Shown here one piece after another: positions 5,920 through 53,755 of a stretch of DNA of 64,000 nt. Origin of the DNA: Mobula birostris (lineage: Eukaryota); contig NC_092371.1 of assembly GCF_030028105.1 (NCBI RefSeq), positions 53,992,439-54,056,438 of the forward strand, read 5' to 3'. A program made the position numbers and the translations under genes. Position 1 is the stretch's first letter. Each line of letters starts with the position of its first letter. The notes under the pieces were generated by a model, which saw only the letters and a program-made list of their open reading frames with translations, had not been told where the DNA came from and made no database searches.

Positions 5920-6565
5920 TAGACACACAAAATGCTGGAGTAAATCAGCAGGTCAGGCAGCATCCATAGAAGTGACTAAACAGTCGATGTTTTGGGCCGA
6001 AACCCTTCTTCAAGACTGAAATGGAAGGGCGAAGATGCCAGAATGAAAAGGTGGAGGGAGAGGAATGATGCTAGCTAGAAGGTGATAGGTGAAGCCAAGT
6101 CAGTGGGAACTATAAAAGGCTGGGAAGAAGGAATCTGATAAGAGAGGAGCGGACCATAGGAGAAAGGGAAGGAGGAGGGGAGCCAGGTGGGATGTGATAG
6201 GCAGGTGAGGAGAGGTAAAAGGTCAGAGTGAGCAGGAGAAGAAGAAGAGGGGAGGAGGAAGGGAAGGTTTTTCTGCTGGAAGGCGAAATCAAGGGTGGCC
6301 TCGATCTTGGCACAAGAGAAGGGCATGGACCAACATGCTGGAATGGGAATGGGAGTGATTGACTACTGGGAGGTTCCACTTTTAGCGGATGGAGTGAAGG
6401 TGCTCAGCAAAGCGGTCCCCCAAATTATGACGCCTCTCAGCAATGTAGAGGAGGCCGCATCAGGAGCATCGGACACAGCAGAATTGGGGGTGAAGTGTTG
6501 CTTCACCTGGAAGGACTGATTGGGGCCCTGAAAGTGAGTGAGGGAGGAGGCGGCCCAACATTGCC
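5920..6565 (-). mobile_element. Penelope-like element 3' fragment (GIY-YIG remnant plus hammerhead tail)
   Basis: QGPNQSFQVKQHFT in ORF 6363..6599; homologous to 13340-14089; degenerate hammerhead at 5981-6018. Confidence 0.85.
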
Positions 6566-10199: not shown

Positions 10200-11178
10200 C
10201 AAACAATCTTTGATGAAAAGCAGAAAGTTTCCTTTAATGGCTGAGCATAAAGGTTAGTTTTACATGCTGGGAAAAGATTTAACCTAGCATTATTTCCTTT
10301 GAAAACTTAACCCGATTTTAACCAAAAGTTAATTTTGAAGATTTGTGTAATATTGCGAAATAATATGATAATTTTAATAACCCAGATATAAAGAATATTT
10401 GAAATCCAATTGCTTGGTTATCATGATTCAGCTATTTAAATTCTCCGTGATAAATCTAATGACTTACTCACTTTATTTGGCTTAGCTTAAAGCTACAACA
10501 TCTAGGTGCCCAGAAAAATCTAAAGCCAGTGGAGCAGGAAGTCTGTGGTAGTCATCAACACATCATTTTACATGACAGAGTTAAGACTCTGAGCACTCAC
10601 GTGCGAAAGAATTTCAATTAGAGAAAGGCTGAAATATGTAAGTGGATATGTTATAATTGAAATATATTTTACACACAGTTGCACAAAGTTTAGATTTTGA
10701 CTTATGCAAGGGCAGCTGATGTTAATAACAGAGTCTTTTAACTCAGGCTTGAATAAGCAAAAAACCCTTCCTCAGTGCAAAGAGTATAATGGGCTAAAGG
10801 CTATTAGAAATAGGCAGAAGAAACATTTCATTCTTTGTAATAACCTAGTCATAATGAAAGATATATAACACTTACAATCAATCCTTTCCATGATGTCTAA
10901 TATACTGTATATCCAAAATTAATTAAAAGGCAAAAATCAAAAATGGAGATCAGAGGAAATCATAATTATTTACAAAGATAATTGATTGGTTTAGAATCAG
11001 CAACTGAAGCCTTAACTGGTATACCTTCCTGGAATTTCTCCCTGGGAATGATTTTAAGTCCAGCATGAAGCCAGTACATGCAAACGCGAGGAAATCTGCA
11101 GATGCTGGAATTTCAAGCAACACCCTTAGAAGTTGCTGGTGAATGCAGCAGGCCAAGCAGCATCTATAAGAAGAGGTA

Positions 11179-11216
11179 CAGTTGACATTTCGGGCCGAGA
11201 CCCTTCGTCAGGACTA
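11179..11216 (-). ncRNA. Minimal type I hammerhead ribozyme (Penelope), slightly mutated
   Basis: Reverse complement reads TAGTC-CTGACGA-AGGGTCTCGGCCC-GAAA-TGTC-AACTG. Confidence 0.7.
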
Positions 11217-11452
11217 ACTGAAAGAAGAGATAGTAAGATTTGAAAGTGGGAGGGGGAGGGGGAGATCCAAAATGATAGGAGAAGACAGGAGGGGAGGGAT
11301 GAAGCCAAGAGCTGGAAAGTTGATTGGCAAAAGGGATATGAAAGGATCATGGGATGGGAGGTCTAGGGAGAAAGAAAAGGGGGAGGGGGGAAGCCCAGAG
11401 GATGGGCAAGGGGTATAGTGAGAGGGACAGAGGGAGAAAAAGAGAGAGAGAA

Positions 11453-11457
<5 letters not shown>

Positions 11458-11484
<27 letters not shown>
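11458..11484. repeat. (TA)n microsatellite within the Penelope left arm
   Basis: Directly visible; the right arm has no equivalent expansion. Confidence 0.9.
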
Positions 11485-11490
<6 letters not shown>

Positions 11491-12084
11491 ATAAATAAAT
11501 AGTGGATGGGGTATGAAGGGGAGGTGGGGCATTAACGGAAGTTAGAGAAGTCAATGTTCATGCCATCAAGTTGGAGGCTACCCAGACGGAATATAAGGTG
11601 TTGTTCCTCCAACCTGAGTGTGGCTTCATCTTGACAGTAGAGGAAGCCGTGGAAAGACATATCAGAATGAGAATGGGACGTGGAATTAAAATGTGTGGCC
11701 ACTGGGAGATCCTGCTTTCTCTGGCGGACAGAGCGTAGGTGTCCAACGAAACGGTCTCCCAGTCTGCCTCGGGTCTCGCCAATATATAGAGGGCCACATT
11801 GGGAGCACCAGGCGAGGTATATCACCCCAGCCGACTCACAGGTGAAGTGTCGCCTCACCTGGAAGGACTGTCTGGGGCCCTGAATGGTGGTAAGGGAGGA
11901 GGTGTACGGGTATGTGTAGCACTTGTTCTGCTAACAAGGATAAGTGCCAGGAGGGAGATCGGTGGGAAGGAATGGTGGGGACGAATGGACAAGGGAGTCA
12001 CGTAGGGAGCGATCCCTGTGGAAAGCAGAGAGGAGGGGAGGGAAAGATGTGCTTAGTGGTGGTATCCTGTTGGAGGTGGCGGAA

Positions 12085-12531
12085 TCAACAGAGTCAACAA
12101 ACTCATTCATAAGGCCAGTGATGTTGTGGGGATGGAACTGGACTCTCTGACGGTGGTGTCTGAAAAGAGGATGCTGTCCAAGTTGCATGCCATCTTGGAC
12201 AATGTCTCCCATCCACTACATAATGAACTGGTTGGGCACAGGAGTACATTCATTCAGAGACTCATTCCACCGAGATGCAACACTGAGCCTCATAGGAAGT
12301 CATTCCTGCCTGTGGCCATCAAACTTTACAACTCCTCCCTTGGAGGGTTAGACACCCTGAGCCAATAGGCTGGTCCTGGACTTATTTCCTGGCATAATTT
12401 ACATATTATTATTTAATTATTTATAGTTTTATTTTGCTATATTTATACTCTATTCTTGGTTGGTGCATCTGTAACGAATCCCAATTTCCCTCGGGATCAA
12501 TAAAGTACGACTAGACTATGACTATGACTAT
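12085..12531 (+). mobile_element. Rex1/Babar LINE 3' end inserted in the Penelope arm
   Basis: ORF 12126..12368 'ILDNVSHPLH...RCNTEPHRKSFLPVAIKLYN', AATAAA and a (GACTAT)n tail; Penelope sequence resumes collinearly at 12532. Confidence 0.9.
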
Positions 12532-12607
12532 AAGTTACGGAGAATTATATGCTGGACCCGAAGGCTGGTGGGGTGGTAGGTGAGGACAAGGGGAACCTTA
12601 TTCCTGT

Positions 12608-13693
12608 CCCCCACTTTTCCTTCGCTACATCGACGACTGCATTGGCGCTGCTTCCTGCATGCATGCTGAGCTCGTTGACTTTATTAACTTTGCCTCCAAC
12701 TTTCACCCTGCTCTCAAGTTTACCTGGTCCATTTCCAACACCTCCCTCCCCTTTCTGGATCTTTCTCTCTCTATCTCTGGAGACAGCTTATCTACTGATG
12801 TCTACTATAAGCCTACAGACCCTCACAGCTACCTGGACTATTCCTCTTCTCACCCTGTCTCTTGCAAAAACGCCATCCCCTTCTCGCAATTCCTCCGTCT
12901 CCACCGCATCTGCTCTCAGGACGAGGCTTTTCATTCCAGGATGAGGGAGATGTCTTCCTTTTTTAAAGAAAGGGGCTTCCCTTCCTCCACCATCAACTCT
13001 GCTCTCAAACGCATCTCCCCCATTTCACGCACGTCTGCTCTCACTCCATCGTCCCGCCACCCCACTAGGAATAGGGTTCCCCTTGTCCTCACCTACCACC
13101 CCACCAGCCTCCGGGTCCAACATATAATTCCCCGTAACTTCTGCCACCTCCAATGGGATCCCACCACTAAGCACATCTTTCCCTCCCCAACTCTCTCTGC
13201 TTTCCACAGGGATCGCTCCCTACGTGACTCCCTTGTCCATTCGTCCCCCCCATCCCTCCCCACCGATCTCCCTCCCGGCACTTACCTTTGTAAACGGAAC
13301 AAGTGCTACACATGCCCCTACGCTTCCTCCCTCACCACCATTCAGGGCCCCAGACAGTCCTTCCAGGTGAGGCGACACTTCACCTGTGAGTCGGCTGTGG
13401 TGATATACTGCGTCCGGTGCTCCCGATGTGGCCTTCTATTTATTGGCAAGACCAGACGCAGGCTGGGAGACCATTTCGCTGAACACCTATGCTCTGTCCG
13501 CCAGAGAAAGCAGGATCTCCCAGTGGCCACATATTTTAGTTCCACATCCCATTCCCATTCTGACATGTCTATCCACAGCCTCCTCTACTGTGAAGATGAA
13601 GTCACACTCAGGTTGGAGGAACAGCACCTTATATTCCGTCTGGGTAGCTTCCAACCTGATGGCATGAACATTGACTTCTTTAACTTCCGTTAA
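12608..13693 (+). CDS. Penelope ORF, 5'-truncated: RT C-terminal half plus GIY-YIG endonuclease
   Basis: LFLRYIDDCIG lies in frame upstream of ATG 12659; the ORF contains LPFLDL, VYYKPT, CKRNKCYTC and VIYCVRCSRCGLLFIGKT, with no stops over about 360 codons. Confidence 0.9.
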   Translation, partial: PPLFLRYIDDCIGAASCMHAELVDFINFASNFHPALKFTWSISNTSLPFLDLSLSISGDSLSTDVYYKPTDPHSYLDYSSSHPVSCKNAIPFSQFLRLHRICSQDEAFHSRMREMSSFFKERGFPSSTINSALKRISPISRTSALTPSSRHPTRNRVPLVLTYHPTSLRVQHIIPRNFCHLQWDPTTKHIFPSPTLSAFHRDRSLRDSLVHSSPPSLPTDLPPGTYLCKRNKCYTCPYASSLTTIQGPRQSFQVRRHFTCESAVVIYCVRCSRCGLLFIGKTRRRLGDHFAEHLCSVRQRKQDLPVATYFSSTSHSHSDMSIHSLLYCEDEVTLRLEEQHLIFRLGSFQPDGMNIDFFNFR

Positions 13694-13988
13694 TGCCCCA
13701 CCTCCCCCTCGTACCCCATACTTTATTTATTTATATACACACATTCTTTTACTCTCTCTCCTTTCCTCCCTCTGTCTCCCTCACTATACCCCTTGCCCAT
13801 CCTCTGGTTTCCCCCTCTCCCCCTTTTCTTTCTCTCTAGGCCTCCTGTCCCATGATCCTCTCATATCCCCTTTGCCAATCACCTGTCCAGCTCTTGGCTG
13901 CATCCCTCCCCCTCCTGTCTTCTCCTATCATTTTGGATCTCCCCCTCCCCCTCCCACTTTCAAATCTCTTACTAACTCTTCTGTCAGT

Positions 13989-14026
13989 TAGTCCTGATGA
14001 AGGGTCTCGGCCTGAAACGTCGACTG
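13989..14026 (+). ncRNA. Minimal type I hammerhead ribozyme (Penelope), intact core
   Basis: TAGTC-CTGATGA-AGGGTCTCGGCCT-GAAAC-GTC^GACTG gives stem I AGTC/GACT, stem II, a palindromic ACGT stem III and a GUC cleavage triplet. Confidence 0.8.
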
Positions 14027-16224
14027 CACCTCTTCCTATAGGTGTTGCCTGGCCTGTTGCATTCACCAGCAACTTTTAAGTGTGTTGCTTAAAGCCAGTA
14101 CAAGTAGGTATCAATCCCTAAAAACAAGCTATCAGCCCAGAATCAGCAACTAAATCCAGCTATAAATAGCATTTGTATTGGAGGCATAGGGAAGTGAGAA
14201 GGAGTTGGTGATTTGATGTGGTTGTGTTGGACTGCGAAGTGTTTCATAAAGTTCCCATACATAGTTAGGGAAAGCCTTAGGGTTATTATACATGGCTTTA
14301 TGGAAAATAAACCTGCACATCACCAAAGCCTATGGGGTTATAATTATAGAGCTGTGTGATAGCTGCAGGAAATACAATGGCTCCATTTCAACTGTTCCTT
14401 ATTATTTCCAATTAATGAGGGAAAGGTACAGCTGCACAACATATCCATTAGTTACTATTTTAAAAATAGTTTATGCATCAAACTCTTGGAATTTCAACTA
14501 AAATTATTTTCATCTGCACAGAGATTCCTGCTATCTTTCCAGCTGGATTAAAAAATTATAAACCTAGATGTTGCAGTCAGCTGCACCTACTTTCTGCTGG
14601 TGTATAGGTGAAATTTTCACTTCTTCATGGAACTTCCTGGGCAAAGCCAATGTAAAGTAACATCTGTCTGCCAGATTCTACAGTGAGGTAATGCCCTTGT
14701 TTCAGAAACACTGACACATTGTGGGGGGGGGGGGCACAAAATAGTGGGGTGAGGGTTGAGAGACAATTAAGGTTGCTGGTAAAATCCTCTTCCAAGAAAT
14801 TGTGGAGAAAGCTGTGAGAGATAATTAATCTTTATCCCTTGTTTATCCAGCTTTCAAGTTGTCAAACAATTAAATGTTTCTGACAATAAAAGTACTAAAC
14901 ATAAATCTAATGTTTAGAGTATTGAATATTAATAAAAAGAATCTCAAGCAATTAAAATCATTCAAGTAAATTCAAAAAGAATCTAAAATATAAAAGCCCT
15001 GGGAATAACTTAAACTATCACAGTTAATAATTTCTATTGAAATTAATGGGGTACATTTTCCTGTGTTGTATATGTAGTAGCAGTATAAATTATCCCAGAT
15101 TCCTACCTCACGCGTAAACTTCTCAAGAACCATAGTTAAAAAAAAGAGCTGTGGAATTCAAGTTTCATTGCTAAAGCAGAAAGCAGCAAACAAACATCAT
15201 CAAATTACTTGGCTTCATCAATAAATGATAAAGAATAAATCTGACATCTCAGAAATCTGGGTATAATTTCTATGTGGACCACTGATTTTGTCTAAAATGG
15301 GAAATCTACCTTATTAAAGAAGTGTATATTCTACTTAGAAAGTCTAAAGTGCAAATATTGTTCTATGCATTGACAATTATGGATTTATGCTAAAGGAGTC
15401 AAATTTTGAAAGGAAAATTCAAGAAAACTAAGTTGAATACAATTTTTCCTCAAAATGCAAAAATGCACATTTAATGTCCTTATATTTAATTATCCTTATA
15501 TAAATAAATTAACTTTTATGAATTTTAGCTAATTATATATAATAATTGCTTCGTATTTATCTACATATTTTAAGAAACTATATATATATATATATCAAAA
15601 ATATCAATGGCATATGGTGACTATAACTGAGTGGAAGTTAGTCCTCAAAGACTCAAAGACTCAAATATTCTTTTTGCTTATTTGCCGGTTCTTCTGGCAG
15701 AGTGCTACACAAGAAAGAACTGCTGTGTTGGACAAAAAAAACATTTTATTATTCTTTTCTGTTTGCTCTGTACTTGTGATGGTATTGACTATAAAGCTTA
15801 CTTCTGCATTCTTCGACTGAAGCAGCTAGAAAAAGTCATCACAGAATCTGCGGCGTCTGAGTCTGCGATAGATGAAAGCAAATAAAGATAAGTGCAGACT
15901 ACTAATTTTATTTGAACACTATCATCTAGTTTTCGGGTAGAAATAAAAACAAAATTTTGAAAACTTCTAATGAATACTTGAAACAGAAAATAAAGCAATG
16001 TGAAGTGCACAAAATAAAACATTCTCTTATCCTTCGCTGGCAACTGATGGAACCAAAGAAAACACAGGACTAAGGAAAAGAATTAAAATCATTATATACC
16101 AGTTCATTTAAATATATGGTGAATAAATCAATCCTTGCTAATCATTCGTTCCACTTGAGATTTAAATAATTTAAATATCAGAGGCTATAAGTACATGCTG
16201 AAGAAACACTGGAATGTTTGACAA

Positions 16225-40728: not shown

Positions 40729-42530
40729 ATAAACACGAGAAAGTCTACAGATGCTGGAAATCCCAAGCAACACATACAAAATGCTGGTCGAACAACATTC
40801 ATGGAATTGAATAAATAATCGATGTTTCGGGTTAATATTTCAGGACTGGAAAGGAAAGGGGGAGATTCCAGAATAAAAAGGTGGGGGAAGGGGAAGGAGG
40901 TTAGCTGGAAGGTGATAGGTGAAGCCAGGTGGGTGGGAAAGGTACAGGGCTGGAGAAGAAGGAATCTGACAGGTGAGGAGAGTGGACCATATGAGAAAGG
41001 GAAGGAGGAGGGGACTCAGGCAGAAGTGATAGGCAGGTAAGAAGAGGTAAAAGGCCAGAGTGAGAAATAGAAGAAGAGGGGAAGGGGAGGGAAATTTTTA
41101 CCAGAATGGGAAATTGATATTTATGCCATCAGTTTGGAGGCTACCCAAATGGAATATCAGGTGTTGCTCCTTTACTCTGAGGATGGCCTCATCTTGGTAC
41201 AAGAGGAAACCATGGACTGACATATCAGAATTGAAGTGTTTGGCCATCAGGAAGTACCACTTTTTCGGATGGAGCGGAGATGCAGAGATGCTCAATGAAG
41301 CGGTCCCCCAATTTACAATGGGTCTCACCAATGTAGAGGAGTCCACATAGGGAGCACCGGACACAATAGACAACCCCAGAAGATTCTCAGGTGAAATGGT
41401 GCATCGCCCAGAAGGACTGCTTGGGGCCCTAAATGAAGGGAAGGGAGGAGGTAAATTGAAGGTATAGGACTTAGACCGCTTGCAGGGACAAGTGGGGAGG
41501 GATGAACGGACAAGGGAATCACAGATGGAGAGGTTCCTGCGGAAAGCAGGGTGGGGGGAAGTAAAAGATATCTTCAGTGGGAGGATCCCTTTGGAGATGG
41601 CGGAAGTTGCAGAGAATGGTGTGTTGGATGTGGAGGCTCATGTTCTTAGAGGACAAGAAGAACTCTATCACTGTTAAGACGGTGGGAAGATGGGGTGAAT
41701 GTGGATGTTCCGGAAATGGAGGAGATGCAGGTAAGGGCAGCATCAATAGTGGAGGAAGGGAAACCCTGTTTTTTGATGAAGGAGGACATCTTTGATGTCC
41801 TCCTTCATCAAAGAACAGGGTTTCCCTTCCTCCACTATTCTTTGATGTCCTGGAAAGGAAAGCCGCATCCTGGGAACAGATGCAGTGGAGACGAAGATAC
41901 TGAGAAAAGGGAGTAACATTTTTACAGGAGGTAGGCTGGTAAGAGGTAGCCAAGTTAATCGTGGGAATTGCTGAGCTTATAAAAGATTTTAGTTGACAGT
42001 TTGTCTCCAGAGATTGAGAAAGGGGAGGAAGGTGTCAGAAATGGACCAAGTGAATTTAAGGGCAGGTTGGAAGTTGAAATTGATGAGCTCAGCATGAGTG
42101 TGTGAATGCAGTCATCAATGTAGTGGAGCAAGAGTTGGAGAGTATTACCAGAGGAGGCTTGGAACATTTACTGTTCTACATAGCCAACGAAGAGGCAGAC
42201 ATTAGCTGGAGCCCATGCGGTTGACATGGCTACCCCTCAAGCCTAGAGTCAAAGGAAAAATTGTTCTTCCATAGCCTCTGTCCTCTCCTATCAGACACCC
42301 CCCCCCTTCTCCAGTCCTGTATCTCTTTCACCAATCAACTTTACTTCATCCCTCCCTTCGCGGTTTCACCTATCACTTTATGTTTCTCTCTCACTTCCCC
42401 ACCTTTTAAATCTACTCATCTTTTTTATTCCAGTCCTGTCAAAGCATCTGGGCCTGAAACGTCGACTGTAATTTCTTCCTAGGTGCTGCCTGGCCTGCTG
42501 TGTTCCTCCAGTATTTTGTGTGTGTTGTGT
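40729..42530. mobile_element. Older Penelope insertion: minus arm 40729-42245 and inverted tail 42266-42530
   Basis: LHYIDDCI, PFSQYLRLHCICS and KEQHLIFHLGSLQ in frameshifted minus ORFs; hammerhead relics at 40818-40848 and 42431-42468. Confidence 0.9.
41745..41839. repeat. 46-bp inverted repeat with a 3-nt loop
   Basis: 41745-41790 matches the reverse complement of 41794-41839 with 1 mismatch. Confidence 0.95.
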
Positions 42531-47124: not shown

Positions 47125-48672
47125 GTGATGGCAGAGGCACAGTCCTTTAGAACTGGTGTTAAAATAGGGCACTTTCTACTCTCTCCATTGGATGTAAGAG
47201 ATCCAATGACAATACTTTTAACAAGAGTAGAAAAATCACCCAAGGCGCACAGGCCATTGATAATCCTTTTTTCAACATCATACAACTGGTCAGAATCACA
47301 GAGACATTTTCAAAAGGTGATGCCTCAGGACGGCAGCATCCATCACTCAGGACCCCCATCACACAGGACATGCCCTCTTCACAGCATCAAGGATGAGGTA
47401 TAGAAGCATGAAGACAAATACTCAGTGTATAAGGAACAGCTCCTTCCCCTCTTCCGTATATACACAGTGCATCCCAGTAAATTAGTACACATCAGGATCA
47501 GAACACTTTGGTCAAGTTAGTTGAAGTTTCATGGAAATAGTAAAAAAGGTAAAAGAATGACAAACTACCATCTAACTGAGTGACAACTTATGGATTTAAA
47601 TGAAATTCAGAACAAATTAGAACACTACCTATACCACTGGTGGTTGCTCTACTGTCATGATGAGGCCACACTCAGGTTGGAGGAGACACACCTTATATTC
47701 TGTCTGGTTTAGCCTCCAACTTAATGGCATAAACATTAAGTTCTATAACTGCTGGTAATGTCCCCCTTCACCATTCCGCATCCCCATTTTCCTCTCTTAC
47801 CTTATCTTCTTACCTGCCCATCACCTCTCTCTGGTGCTCCTCCCACTTTTCTTTCTTCCATGGCCTTCTGTCCTCTCCTAATAGATTCCCCCTTCTCCAG
47901 CCCTGAATTTCTTTCACCAATCAACTTCCCAGCTCTTTACTTCACTCCTACCCCCTCCCAGTTTCACCTATCATTTTGTGTTTCTTTCTCCCCTCCCCCC
48001 ACCTTCTAACTCTGACTCCTCATCTTTTTTTCTGCGGTCCTGGTGAAGGGTCTTGGCCCAAAATGTCGACTGTACTCTTTCCCATAGATGCTGCCTGGCC
48101 TGCTGGGTTCCTCCAGAATTTGGATGTTGCTTTGTAGATCCTAACTTGTTGAAGTCGTGAAATCATTTCATTTTCAATCCCAGCTGTTTCAGAATCAGAA
48201 TCAGGTTTATTATCACCAGCATGTGACATGAAATTTGTTAACAGCAACAGCAGTTCAATGCAATACATAATCTAGCAGAGAGAAAAATAATAATAATAAA
48301 TAAACAAGTAAATCAATAACAGTATACATATATTGAATAGATTTAAAAAATGTGCAAAAACAGAAATACTGTATATTGAAATAAAGTGAGGTAGTGTCCA
48401 AAGATTCAATGTCCATTTAGGAATCAGACGGCTGGGTCTGAATGCTTGAAACTGCAATAAGGAAAGCATTTCTGAATTGTGTTACTGCTTATTTCTTCCC
48501 AGCTATCAATGAGTAGTTTGTAATTTATAGTGTTTTTATTATGCATTGCACTACCCTGCCACCACAAGACATCAACTTTCATCACATATGCCAATGATAT
48601 TAAACCTGATTCTGATTCTGATTGTAAATTGGCTGCTGCATTTCTTACCTTACACAAGTACACCACTTCAAA
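47125..48672. mobile_element. Nested cluster: DeuSINE > Rex1 3' end > Tigger-like > Penelope and Rex1 tail
   Basis: DeuSINE 47125-47300 and 48623-48672; Rex1 47301-47457 and 48515-48622; Tigger-like 47461-47637, 48137-48188 and 48435-48514; Penelope(+) 47638-48134; Rex1 tail(-) 48189-48434. Confidence 0.65.
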
Positions 48673-53684: not shown

Positions 53685-53755
53685 TATCCTGATGAAGGGT
53701 CTCGGCCTGAAATATTGACTGTTTATCCCTATGCATAGATGCTATCTGACCCGCA
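53685..53755 (+). mobile_element. Penelope hammerhead tail
   Basis: CTGATGAAGGGTCTCGGCCTGAAA is identical to 13994-14017; stem III is mutated. Confidence 0.85.

What the first reader, a model, noticed from the sequence alone, without database searches (positions are those of the whole stretch)
13989..14026. Intact minimal hammerhead ribozyme at the Penelope 3' end
Seen: all core nucleotides (CUGAUGA, GAAA, GUC) plus stems I and II are present, and stem III is reduced to a loop-less palindrome ACGU. Known: Penelope-like elements carry such minimal type I hammerheads, thought to cleave as dimers. Inference: this copy may still self-cleave after position 14021. The ORF track cannot show this feature.
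Basis: partly seen in the sequence, partly recalled or inferred. Interest (0 to 1): 0.7.

Follow-up and report, generated by a model that had tools for sequence, protein, structure and literature searches.

The report
Known Penelope hammerhead, likely silent copy
This is a real copy of a tiny self-cutting RNA motif already known from Penelope-type jumping genes and repeated over 30,000 times in this genome; this particular copy likely does not cut, although rare joins between sister copies fall exactly on the predicted cut site, which likely records the family cutting in living cells.

Summary
The motif is real (13990-14025): a minimal type I hammerhead in the pseudo-LTR of a 5'-truncated, inverted Neptune/Nematis-type Penelope-like insertion, a kind described in 2014. 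It is not rare: 30,596 exact matches in the genome. 'Intact' needs a qualifier: in the best register stem II closes with G-U instead of the conserved G10.1-C11.1. This copy probably does not cleave: no same-strand partner nearby, a competing hairpin (predicted P 0.99) buries the core, and the upstream inverted arm would pair with it. At family level, ordinary copies start at the motif's first two bases (about 8% and 5% raw) rather than at the cut site (1.4%, control 1.25%), which suggests the transcript starts at stem I. Among 79 rare head-to-tail joins, 22 (20 loci) join C14021, the predicted cut, straight to A13990: a likely fossil of cleavage in vivo. The scan had already noted this family, the start peak and the cut-site joins on other DNA of this genome; I re-tested them here. 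Cleavage and transcription are untested.

The parts
13990..14025 (+). Minimal type I hammerhead motif (stem I 13990-93 with 14022-25; U13989-G14026 wobble extends it)
   Evidence: sequence
13994..14001 (+). Core CUGAUGA (C3-A9) plus unpaired A14001 between positions 9 and 10.1
   Evidence: A14001 in 26 of 26 young copies
14002..14013 (+). Stem II, 4 pairs around CUCG, closed by G10.1-U11.1 wobble
   Evidence: U in 18 and C in 8 of 26 young copies
14014..14021 (+). GAAA core, loop-less palindrome ACGU (14017-20), C17 = 14021, predicted cut after it
   Evidence: 22 of 79 rare joins end here and restart at 13990 (hand tally)
13975..13987 (+). Strand predicted to pair with 13994-14005 and bury the core; includes private G13983
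13989..13991 (+). Preferred 5' end of sister copies (A13990/G13991); inferred transcript start; also reads as the AG of a splice-acceptor-like stretch
12604..14091 (+). Sense arm: 5'-truncated Penelope-like element (RT C-terminal part, CX4CX2C linker, GIY-YIG to stop at 13693, then pseudo-LTR), lacking the tail
11079..12605 (-). Inverted arm of the same insertion, carrying the tail (about 11079-11111)
11180..11215 (-). Second hammerhead copy, opposite strand, decayed (palindrome AUGU, stem I mismatch; keeps G10.1-C11.1)
12085..12531 (+). Later insertion of another repeat's 3' end with a GACTAT-repeat tail (LINE-like; label recalled, not tested)
   Evidence: gap in arm alignment; similar sequence seen in L182
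11068..11078 (.). Left target-site duplication, 11 bp
14092..14102 (.). Right target-site duplication, 11 bp

Best explanation
The motif is a minimal type I hammerhead in the pseudo-LTR of a very abundant Neptune/Nematis-type Penelope-like retrotransposon, and this copy is likely a passive relic that does not cut, while in active elements the motif likely forms the first 36 bases of the transcript and likely cuts now and then with a partner copy. Shown: the motif, its host element, its copy number, where sister copies begin, and where rare joins fall. Inferred: RNA polymerase starts at A13990; the element's reverse transcriptase starts in the tail 70-105 bases beyond the cut site and copies back to that start, giving the many ~100-135-base copies and, from a downstream pseudo-LTR, longer truncated ones such as this; two motifs pair through ACGU (possibly helped by the element's protein) and release a 32-base leader; reverse transcriptase occasionally jumps from the RNA's 5' end onto such a leader's free 3' end, leaving 13990-14021 repeated in the DNA.
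For: Known kind: PMC4209133 describes these motifs in fish Neptune elements, with no monomer activity and low dimer activity. Abundance: 30,596 exact matches, 0 for the reversed pattern. This copy: nearest same-strand relative in the window is a decayed copy at 53689; in every context that included upstream flank stems I and II had probability 0.001 or less and the rival hairpin 0.50-0.996; the two arms would form a duplex of -264.6 kcal/mol over the motif region against -33.5 for the region alone; its twin arm and 3 of 3 other copies sharing T14039 have C at 11.1, so the U is probably decay after insertion. Starts: non-A at 13990 in 2,522 of 30,596, 18 of 20 inspected are true junctions; purine at 13989 in 1,375, 12 of 12 junctions; non-G at 13991 only 1,353; unbiased tiles 8 of 74 start at 13990-91; one of 20 ORF-start loci (L207) begins at the 13991 equivalent and runs on into the ORF. 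Cut site as 5' end: 833 of 59,215 vs 742 one base on; 8 of 20 flagged as junctions (7 by eye). Joins: 22 of 79 matches read C14021 then A13990; 20 of 28 loci with a direct join to 13990, P 1.4e-14 against an even spread over 10 places; the upstream piece is the 13990/91-14021 fragment in 4 of the 5 stored loci that join C14021 to 13990 directly or with one changed base (L300, L306, L310, L311; L302 is shorter).
Against: No cleavage or transcription was measured. Folding programs ignore the hammerhead's non-canonical core and any protein help; the anole element's ribozyme cut only with its protein and without a stated tandem partner, so a solo copy is not excluded. U11.1 is the majority state (18 of 26) in a family that spread widely, so the wobble need not be crippling. 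The rival hairpin exceeds P 0.9 in 9 of 45 copies and stem II is weak in most (median 0.06), so poor predicted folding is a family trait, not only this copy's. No copy simply ends at the cut: 0 of 25 inspected of 389 (only joins followed by C or T). No compensatory changes were seen in the stems among 78 older copies (by eye). The start peak could have another cause than a promoter.
Confidence: 0.72

Rival explanations
1. This copy still cuts when transcribed, by pairing in trans with one of the tens of thousands of sister motifs in nuclear RNA or with help from the element's protein.
For: All core bases, the palindrome and both stems are present; the isolated 38-mer forms stems I and II with P about 0.9; family sequence is abundant in four runs guessed to be RNA; protein-assisted cleavage is reported for the anole element.
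Against: Rival hairpin and antisense arm; wobble at 10.1-11.1; monomers inactive and dimers weak in PMC4209133; a double-hammerhead dimer scores -11.5 against -26.7 kcal/mol for the best other dimer (secondary structure only).
Confidence: 0.12
2. The family motif is kept for a role other than cutting (promoter, splice or protein-binding element at the transcript start); the joins at 14021 come from template slips tied to structure, not from cleavage.
For: Ordinary copies show no excess of ends at the cut; stems barely vary, so pairing is not shown by covariation; a second join peak at 14024; PMC11167929 found no RNA reads ending at the cut and no need for cleavage in vitro; PMC8557442 calls the function unclear.
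Against: Microhomology predicts joins reading GAAAC|GTCC (3 of 79 matches) or ending at 14020 and restarting at 13989 (0 of 79), not the observed 22; decay of a CpG cannot supply them, since the undecayed form occurs in only 3 matches; the peak sits on the bond that chemistry predicts.
Confidence: 0.2
3. The pile-up of 5' ends at 13990-13991 comes from a splice acceptor (branch-point-like CTAAC/CTCAC, pyrimidine tract, AG at 13990-91), as for the Drosophila Penelope intron that ends at helix I, rather than from a promoter.
For: Pyrimidine tract plus AG precedes the motif in young and older families; PMC4209133 places the D. virilis intron end at the 5' end of helix I.
Against: None of 32 inspected loci shows a shared upstream exon; junctions abut target DNA or an inverted arm; no GT..AG joint ending at 13991 was among the listed joints (279 more were not shown).
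Confidence: 0.12

Closest known systems
Minimal hammerheads (min-HHR) in pseudo-LTRs of metazoan Penelope-like elements (Cervera and de la Pena 2014, PMC4209133; parts 1-2 of 4 read, supplements and figures not seen)
   Same: Type I, no helix III, palindromic 15.2-16.2, extra base between 9 and 10.1, short helix I, thousands of dispersed solo or inverted copies, reported in fish Neptune elements.
   Different: Helix II is 4 pairs (7-8 in the Schistosoma families); 11.1 is U here; 30,596 exact copies against about 9,000 motifs in Xenopus (different search methods).
Hammerhead of the anole Poseidon element PAc (Frangieh et al. 2024, PMC11167929; parts 1-2 of 4 read, supplements not seen)
   Same: Hammerhead in the pseudo-LTR upstream of two internal reverse-transcription starts that make the tail; uncut RNA appears to be the main template.
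   Different: There the ORF starts within stem II; here the first in-frame ATG lies about 140 bases past the cut (read by eye). They saw no reads ending at the cut; here rare genomic joins do end there.
EN+ Penelope-like elements, Neptune/Nematis type (Craig et al. 2021, PMC8557442; passages)
   Same: RT, CX2-5CxxC linker, C-terminal GIY-YIG, 5' truncation, inverted partner, tail on one end only, partial tandems.
   Different: Clear 11-bp target duplication here; no tree was built, so Neptune and Nematis are not told apart.
R2 element HDV-like ribozyme (PMC3774820; search listing and start of abstract only)
   Same: A self-cleaving RNA at the 5' end of a retrotransposon whose action can be read from genomic junctions.
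   Different: In Drosophila R2 the cut is at the element's 5' junction; here ordinary 5' junctions lie 32 bases upstream of the cut.

Membership tests
PLE minimal hammerhead (min-HHR) | Core C3-U4-G5-A6-N7-G8-A9, G12-A13-A14-A15.1, U16.1-H17 | tested here: met
PLE minimal hammerhead (min-HHR) | Unpaired base between positions 9 and 10.1 | tested here: met
   A14001; register favoured; 26 of 26 young copies
PLE minimal hammerhead (min-HHR) | Highly conserved G10.1-C11.1 pair | tested here: not met
   G-U in this copy and 18 of 26 young copies; G-C in 8 of 26 and in the twin arm. A consensus trait, not part of the catalytic core.
PLE minimal hammerhead (min-HHR) | Palindromic 15.2-16.2, no helix III loop | tested here: met
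   ACGU 14017-14020
PLE minimal hammerhead (min-HHR) | Helix I of 4-5 pairs and a helix II | tested here: met
   Complementarity present; forms in the 38-mer but not with flanks
PLE minimal hammerhead (min-HHR) | Compensatory changes in the stems | tested here: inconclusive
   Stems nearly invariant apart from decay in 26 young and 78 older copies; no formal pair count run
PLE minimal hammerhead (min-HHR) | Lies in the pseudo-LTR of a Penelope-like element | tested here: met
PLE minimal hammerhead (min-HHR) | Same-strand tandem partner for dimer cleavage | tested here: not met
   Partner at this locus is on the other strand and decayed; tandem arrangements exist at sister loci
PLE minimal hammerhead (min-HHR) | Mg-dependent self-cleavage at C17 | not testable with these tools
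   Only indirect genomic joins
Rfam hammerhead families | Match to a curated covariance model | tested here: not met
Neptune/Nematis-type EN+ PLE | Single ORF, RT followed by C-terminal GIY-YIG endonuclease | tested here: met
   RVT_1 E 4.1e-05 and GIY-YIG E 7.9e-04 on P0002, both under curated cut-offs
Neptune/Nematis-type EN+ PLE | CX2-5CxxC linker between RT and EN | tested here: met
   CKRNKCYTC in P0001 and P0002; criterion
Neptune/Nematis-type EN+ PLE | Pseudo-LTR, inverted truncated partner, tail on one end | tested here: met
Neptune (as against Nematis) | Placement in the RT tree | not tested
   No reference proteins fetched
Non-LTR retrozyme | Non-coding tandem repeat with a hammerhead in each unit | tested here: not met
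   The copy is part of a coding element, not a tandem array; definition

The most novel reading that the evidence does not exclude
The genome holds a fossil record that a vertebrate Penelope hammerhead cuts in the germ line: the element's RNA starts at the first base of the ribozyme, cleavage clips off a 32-base leader, and reverse transcriptase jumps onto that leader and pastes it in front of new copies. With 30,000 natural variants, this makes the open question of what these ribozymes do for Penelope elements directly testable.
Probability: 0.55. Interest if true: 0.62.

Novelty: new member of a known kind. Interest (0 to 1): 0.33.

Why it matters
The motif itself is textbook for Penelope-like elements, and this copy is one of tens of thousands. 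What could matter is the family record: published work leaves the ribozyme's role open (PMC8557442 passages; PMC11167929 found no RNA ends at the cut). A fixed start at stem I plus joins exactly at the predicted cut would give in vivo evidence of cleavage and explain the abundant short copies. Four searches of the held library listed no paper whose title or abstract start reports such joins; the key dimer paper (Lunse et al.) and all supplements were not seen. The scan itself had noted these patterns before in this genome.

Tried and rejected
Rfam: no hammerhead match. Pfam on the window's ORF remnant: none. The reading A10.1-U11.1 without a bulge: rejected on energy and on family state. Cut site as the usual 5' end of copies: rejected. 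Cut site as the usual 3' end: rejected for joins followed by C or T, 0 of 25; control one base earlier 331 matches, 13 of 15 flagged as plain substitutions. L185 looked like a triple tandem but its 3,027-base unit includes unrelated flank, so it is a duplication, not an element array. Host gene: a crude exon scan gave 16 weak candidates, none followed up. RNA evidence: no RNA holder listed; contigs of runs guessed to be RNA cover the repeat but almost none of the unique flank, which says nothing for or against transcription of this locus. A cap-derived G before A13990 (59 G, 41 A among 100 listed, by hand) is confounded by microhomology with the inverted arm and is not used. Lunse et al. (dimer cleavage of PLE hammerheads) is not held; only its title was seen. 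A search for shark or ray Penelope papers listed nothing relevant. No notes near this window.

Full report
Observation. It is not chance: 3 pattern matches in the window against 0.00 in shuffles, 18 descriptor hits in 824 kb of genome tiles against 0 in reversed sequence. Rfam has no model that catches it. The better register leaves A14001 unpaired and closes stem II with G14002-U14013. That matches the published consensus of an extra base between 9 and 10.1 but departs from its G10.1-C11.1 pair (PMC4209133).

Context. The motif lies about 300 bases after the stop of a RT-linker-GIY-YIG remnant with a CX4CX2C linker, the mark of Neptune/Nematis elements. The insertion is an inverted pair, 11079-12605 on the minus strand and 12604-14091 on the plus strand, between 11-bp target duplications, with the tail on the left end only and a later insertion at 12085-12531. 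The sense arm is 93-94% identical to its closest sampled relatives. It holds 30,596 exact matches to a 34-base form of the motif and about 52 young repeat ends per Mb (74 in 1.424 Mb). Of 20 loci holding the ORF start, most of those with an upstream motif show the normal partial tandem, repeat-motif-tail-ORF, so the motif that ends one unit heads the next.

This copy. It has no same-strand partner closer than a decayed copy at 53689; its twin is on the other strand and broken. With flanks, predicted pairing of stems I and II falls to 0.001 or less, replaced by a hairpin 13975-87 with 13994-14005 that a private G13983 strengthens; the hairpin exceeds 0.9 in 9 of 45 copies, so it is partly a family trait. 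A plus-strand transcript through the whole insertion would pair the arms (-264.6 kcal/mol over the motif region). U at 11.1 is common in the family (18 of 26) but in this copy is probably decay, since the twin arm and the three other copies with T14039 have C. Published monomers did not cut and dimers cut weakly; the anole motif needed its protein. Whether the locus is transcribed is unknown. I put activity of this copy at about 0.12.

Where copies begin. In unbiased tiles 8 of 74 young copies start at 13990-13991 (6 of 57 with a second method). Genome-wide, 2,522 of 30,596 have a base other than A at 13990, and 18 of 20 inspected are junctions; 1,375 have a purine at 13989, 12 of 12 junctions; one base further in, the count drops to 1,353 of about 31,950. 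At the cut site the like figure is 833 of 59,215 against 742 one base on, and 12 of 20 inspected are plain substitutions. Contigs of runs guessed to be RNA show many loose ends at 13990 and 14026, so diverged relatives share the motif and part at its edges; 78 older copies agree, though they were picked with a pattern covering 13994-14025. The simplest reading is that the RNA starts at A13990, which sits in a YYANWYY initiator-like context (consensus recalled). A splice acceptor is the rival.

Does the family cut? My first tests found no sign: no excess of 5' ends at the cut, and 0 of 25 inspected 3' ends there. Earlier scan notes on this genome pointed to rare joins, so I searched for the motif's end joined within 10 bases to its start. 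Of 79 matches (tallied by hand), 22 at 20 loci read C14021 directly followed by A13990; other direct joins to 13990 end at 14017 (1), 14018 (2), 14022 (1) and 14024 (4). About 13 more are compatible with an end at 14021 and another restart, several ambiguous; 10 in all end at 14024. Against an even spread P is 1.4e-14, a naive null. Microhomology and CpG decay predict other forms, seen 3, 0 and 3 times. In L300, L306, L310 and L311 the upstream piece is the 13990/91-14021 fragment, twice over in L300. In L306 both pieces share a private base, so both came from one source locus or one molecule. These joins are about 0.1% of copies. Reverse transcriptase might also cross a cut without a scar, so 'uncut template' is not proven for ordinary copies.

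Comparison and verdict. It works like, and is filed as, a minimal hammerhead of Penelope-like elements (PMC4209133), with one consensus pair and the tandem partner missing in this copy. Papers seen: PMC4209133 and PMC11167929, parts 1-2 of 4; bioRxiv 10.64898/2026.07.22.740005, part 1 of 5 and passages; PMC8557442, PMC6765202, PMC2377424, PMC6155905, passages; PMC3774820, listing only. Supplements were not seen and may list cartilaginous-fish motifs. The finding as given is ordinary; the family-level start peak and cut-site joins add moderate interest and had already been noted by this scan. Interest 0.33; new member of a known kind.

Noticed in passing
window 13972-13991: Branch-point-like CTAAC, pyrimidine tract and AG directly before stem I; a pyrimidine tract plus AG also precedes the motif in older families, echoing the D. 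virilis Penelope intron end.
   Followed up: partly
window near 6013 (-), 8545 (-), 23929 (-), 38125 (-), 42436 (+), 44604 (-), 48040 (+), 53689 (+): Eight further decayed hammerhead-like copies from older Penelope-like families.
   Followed up: partly
window 41117-42527 and 47647-48105: Older Penelope-like fragments, 64-71% identical to the young element; 41117-42527 is also an inverted pair.
   Followed up: no
window 12085-12531: 3' end of another repeat with a GACTAT tail inserted into the inverted arm; a similar piece lies in front of the element in L182.
   Followed up: no
L207 (about 1254 onward, element sense): Copy that begins at the 13991 equivalent and runs through tail into the ORF; L189, L194 and L207 carry two same-strand motifs 600-800 bases apart, retrozyme-like derivatives.
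   Followed up: partly
L237, L245: Apparent junctions at the cut site that read as fold-backs through stem I from a cDNA ending at 13990.
   Followed up: partly
L185: Three identical 3,027-base units holding a truncated element plus unrelated flank: recent duplication or assembly repeat.
   Followed up: partly
one search matches, e.g. L309: Joins that restart at 13985-13986 (about 15 of 79), a possible second start in another initiator-like context; six read T14020, G, then A13986.
   Followed up: no
G000, one search list: Many sister copies keep open frames of 700-1064 codons, so the family expanded recently.
   Followed up: partly
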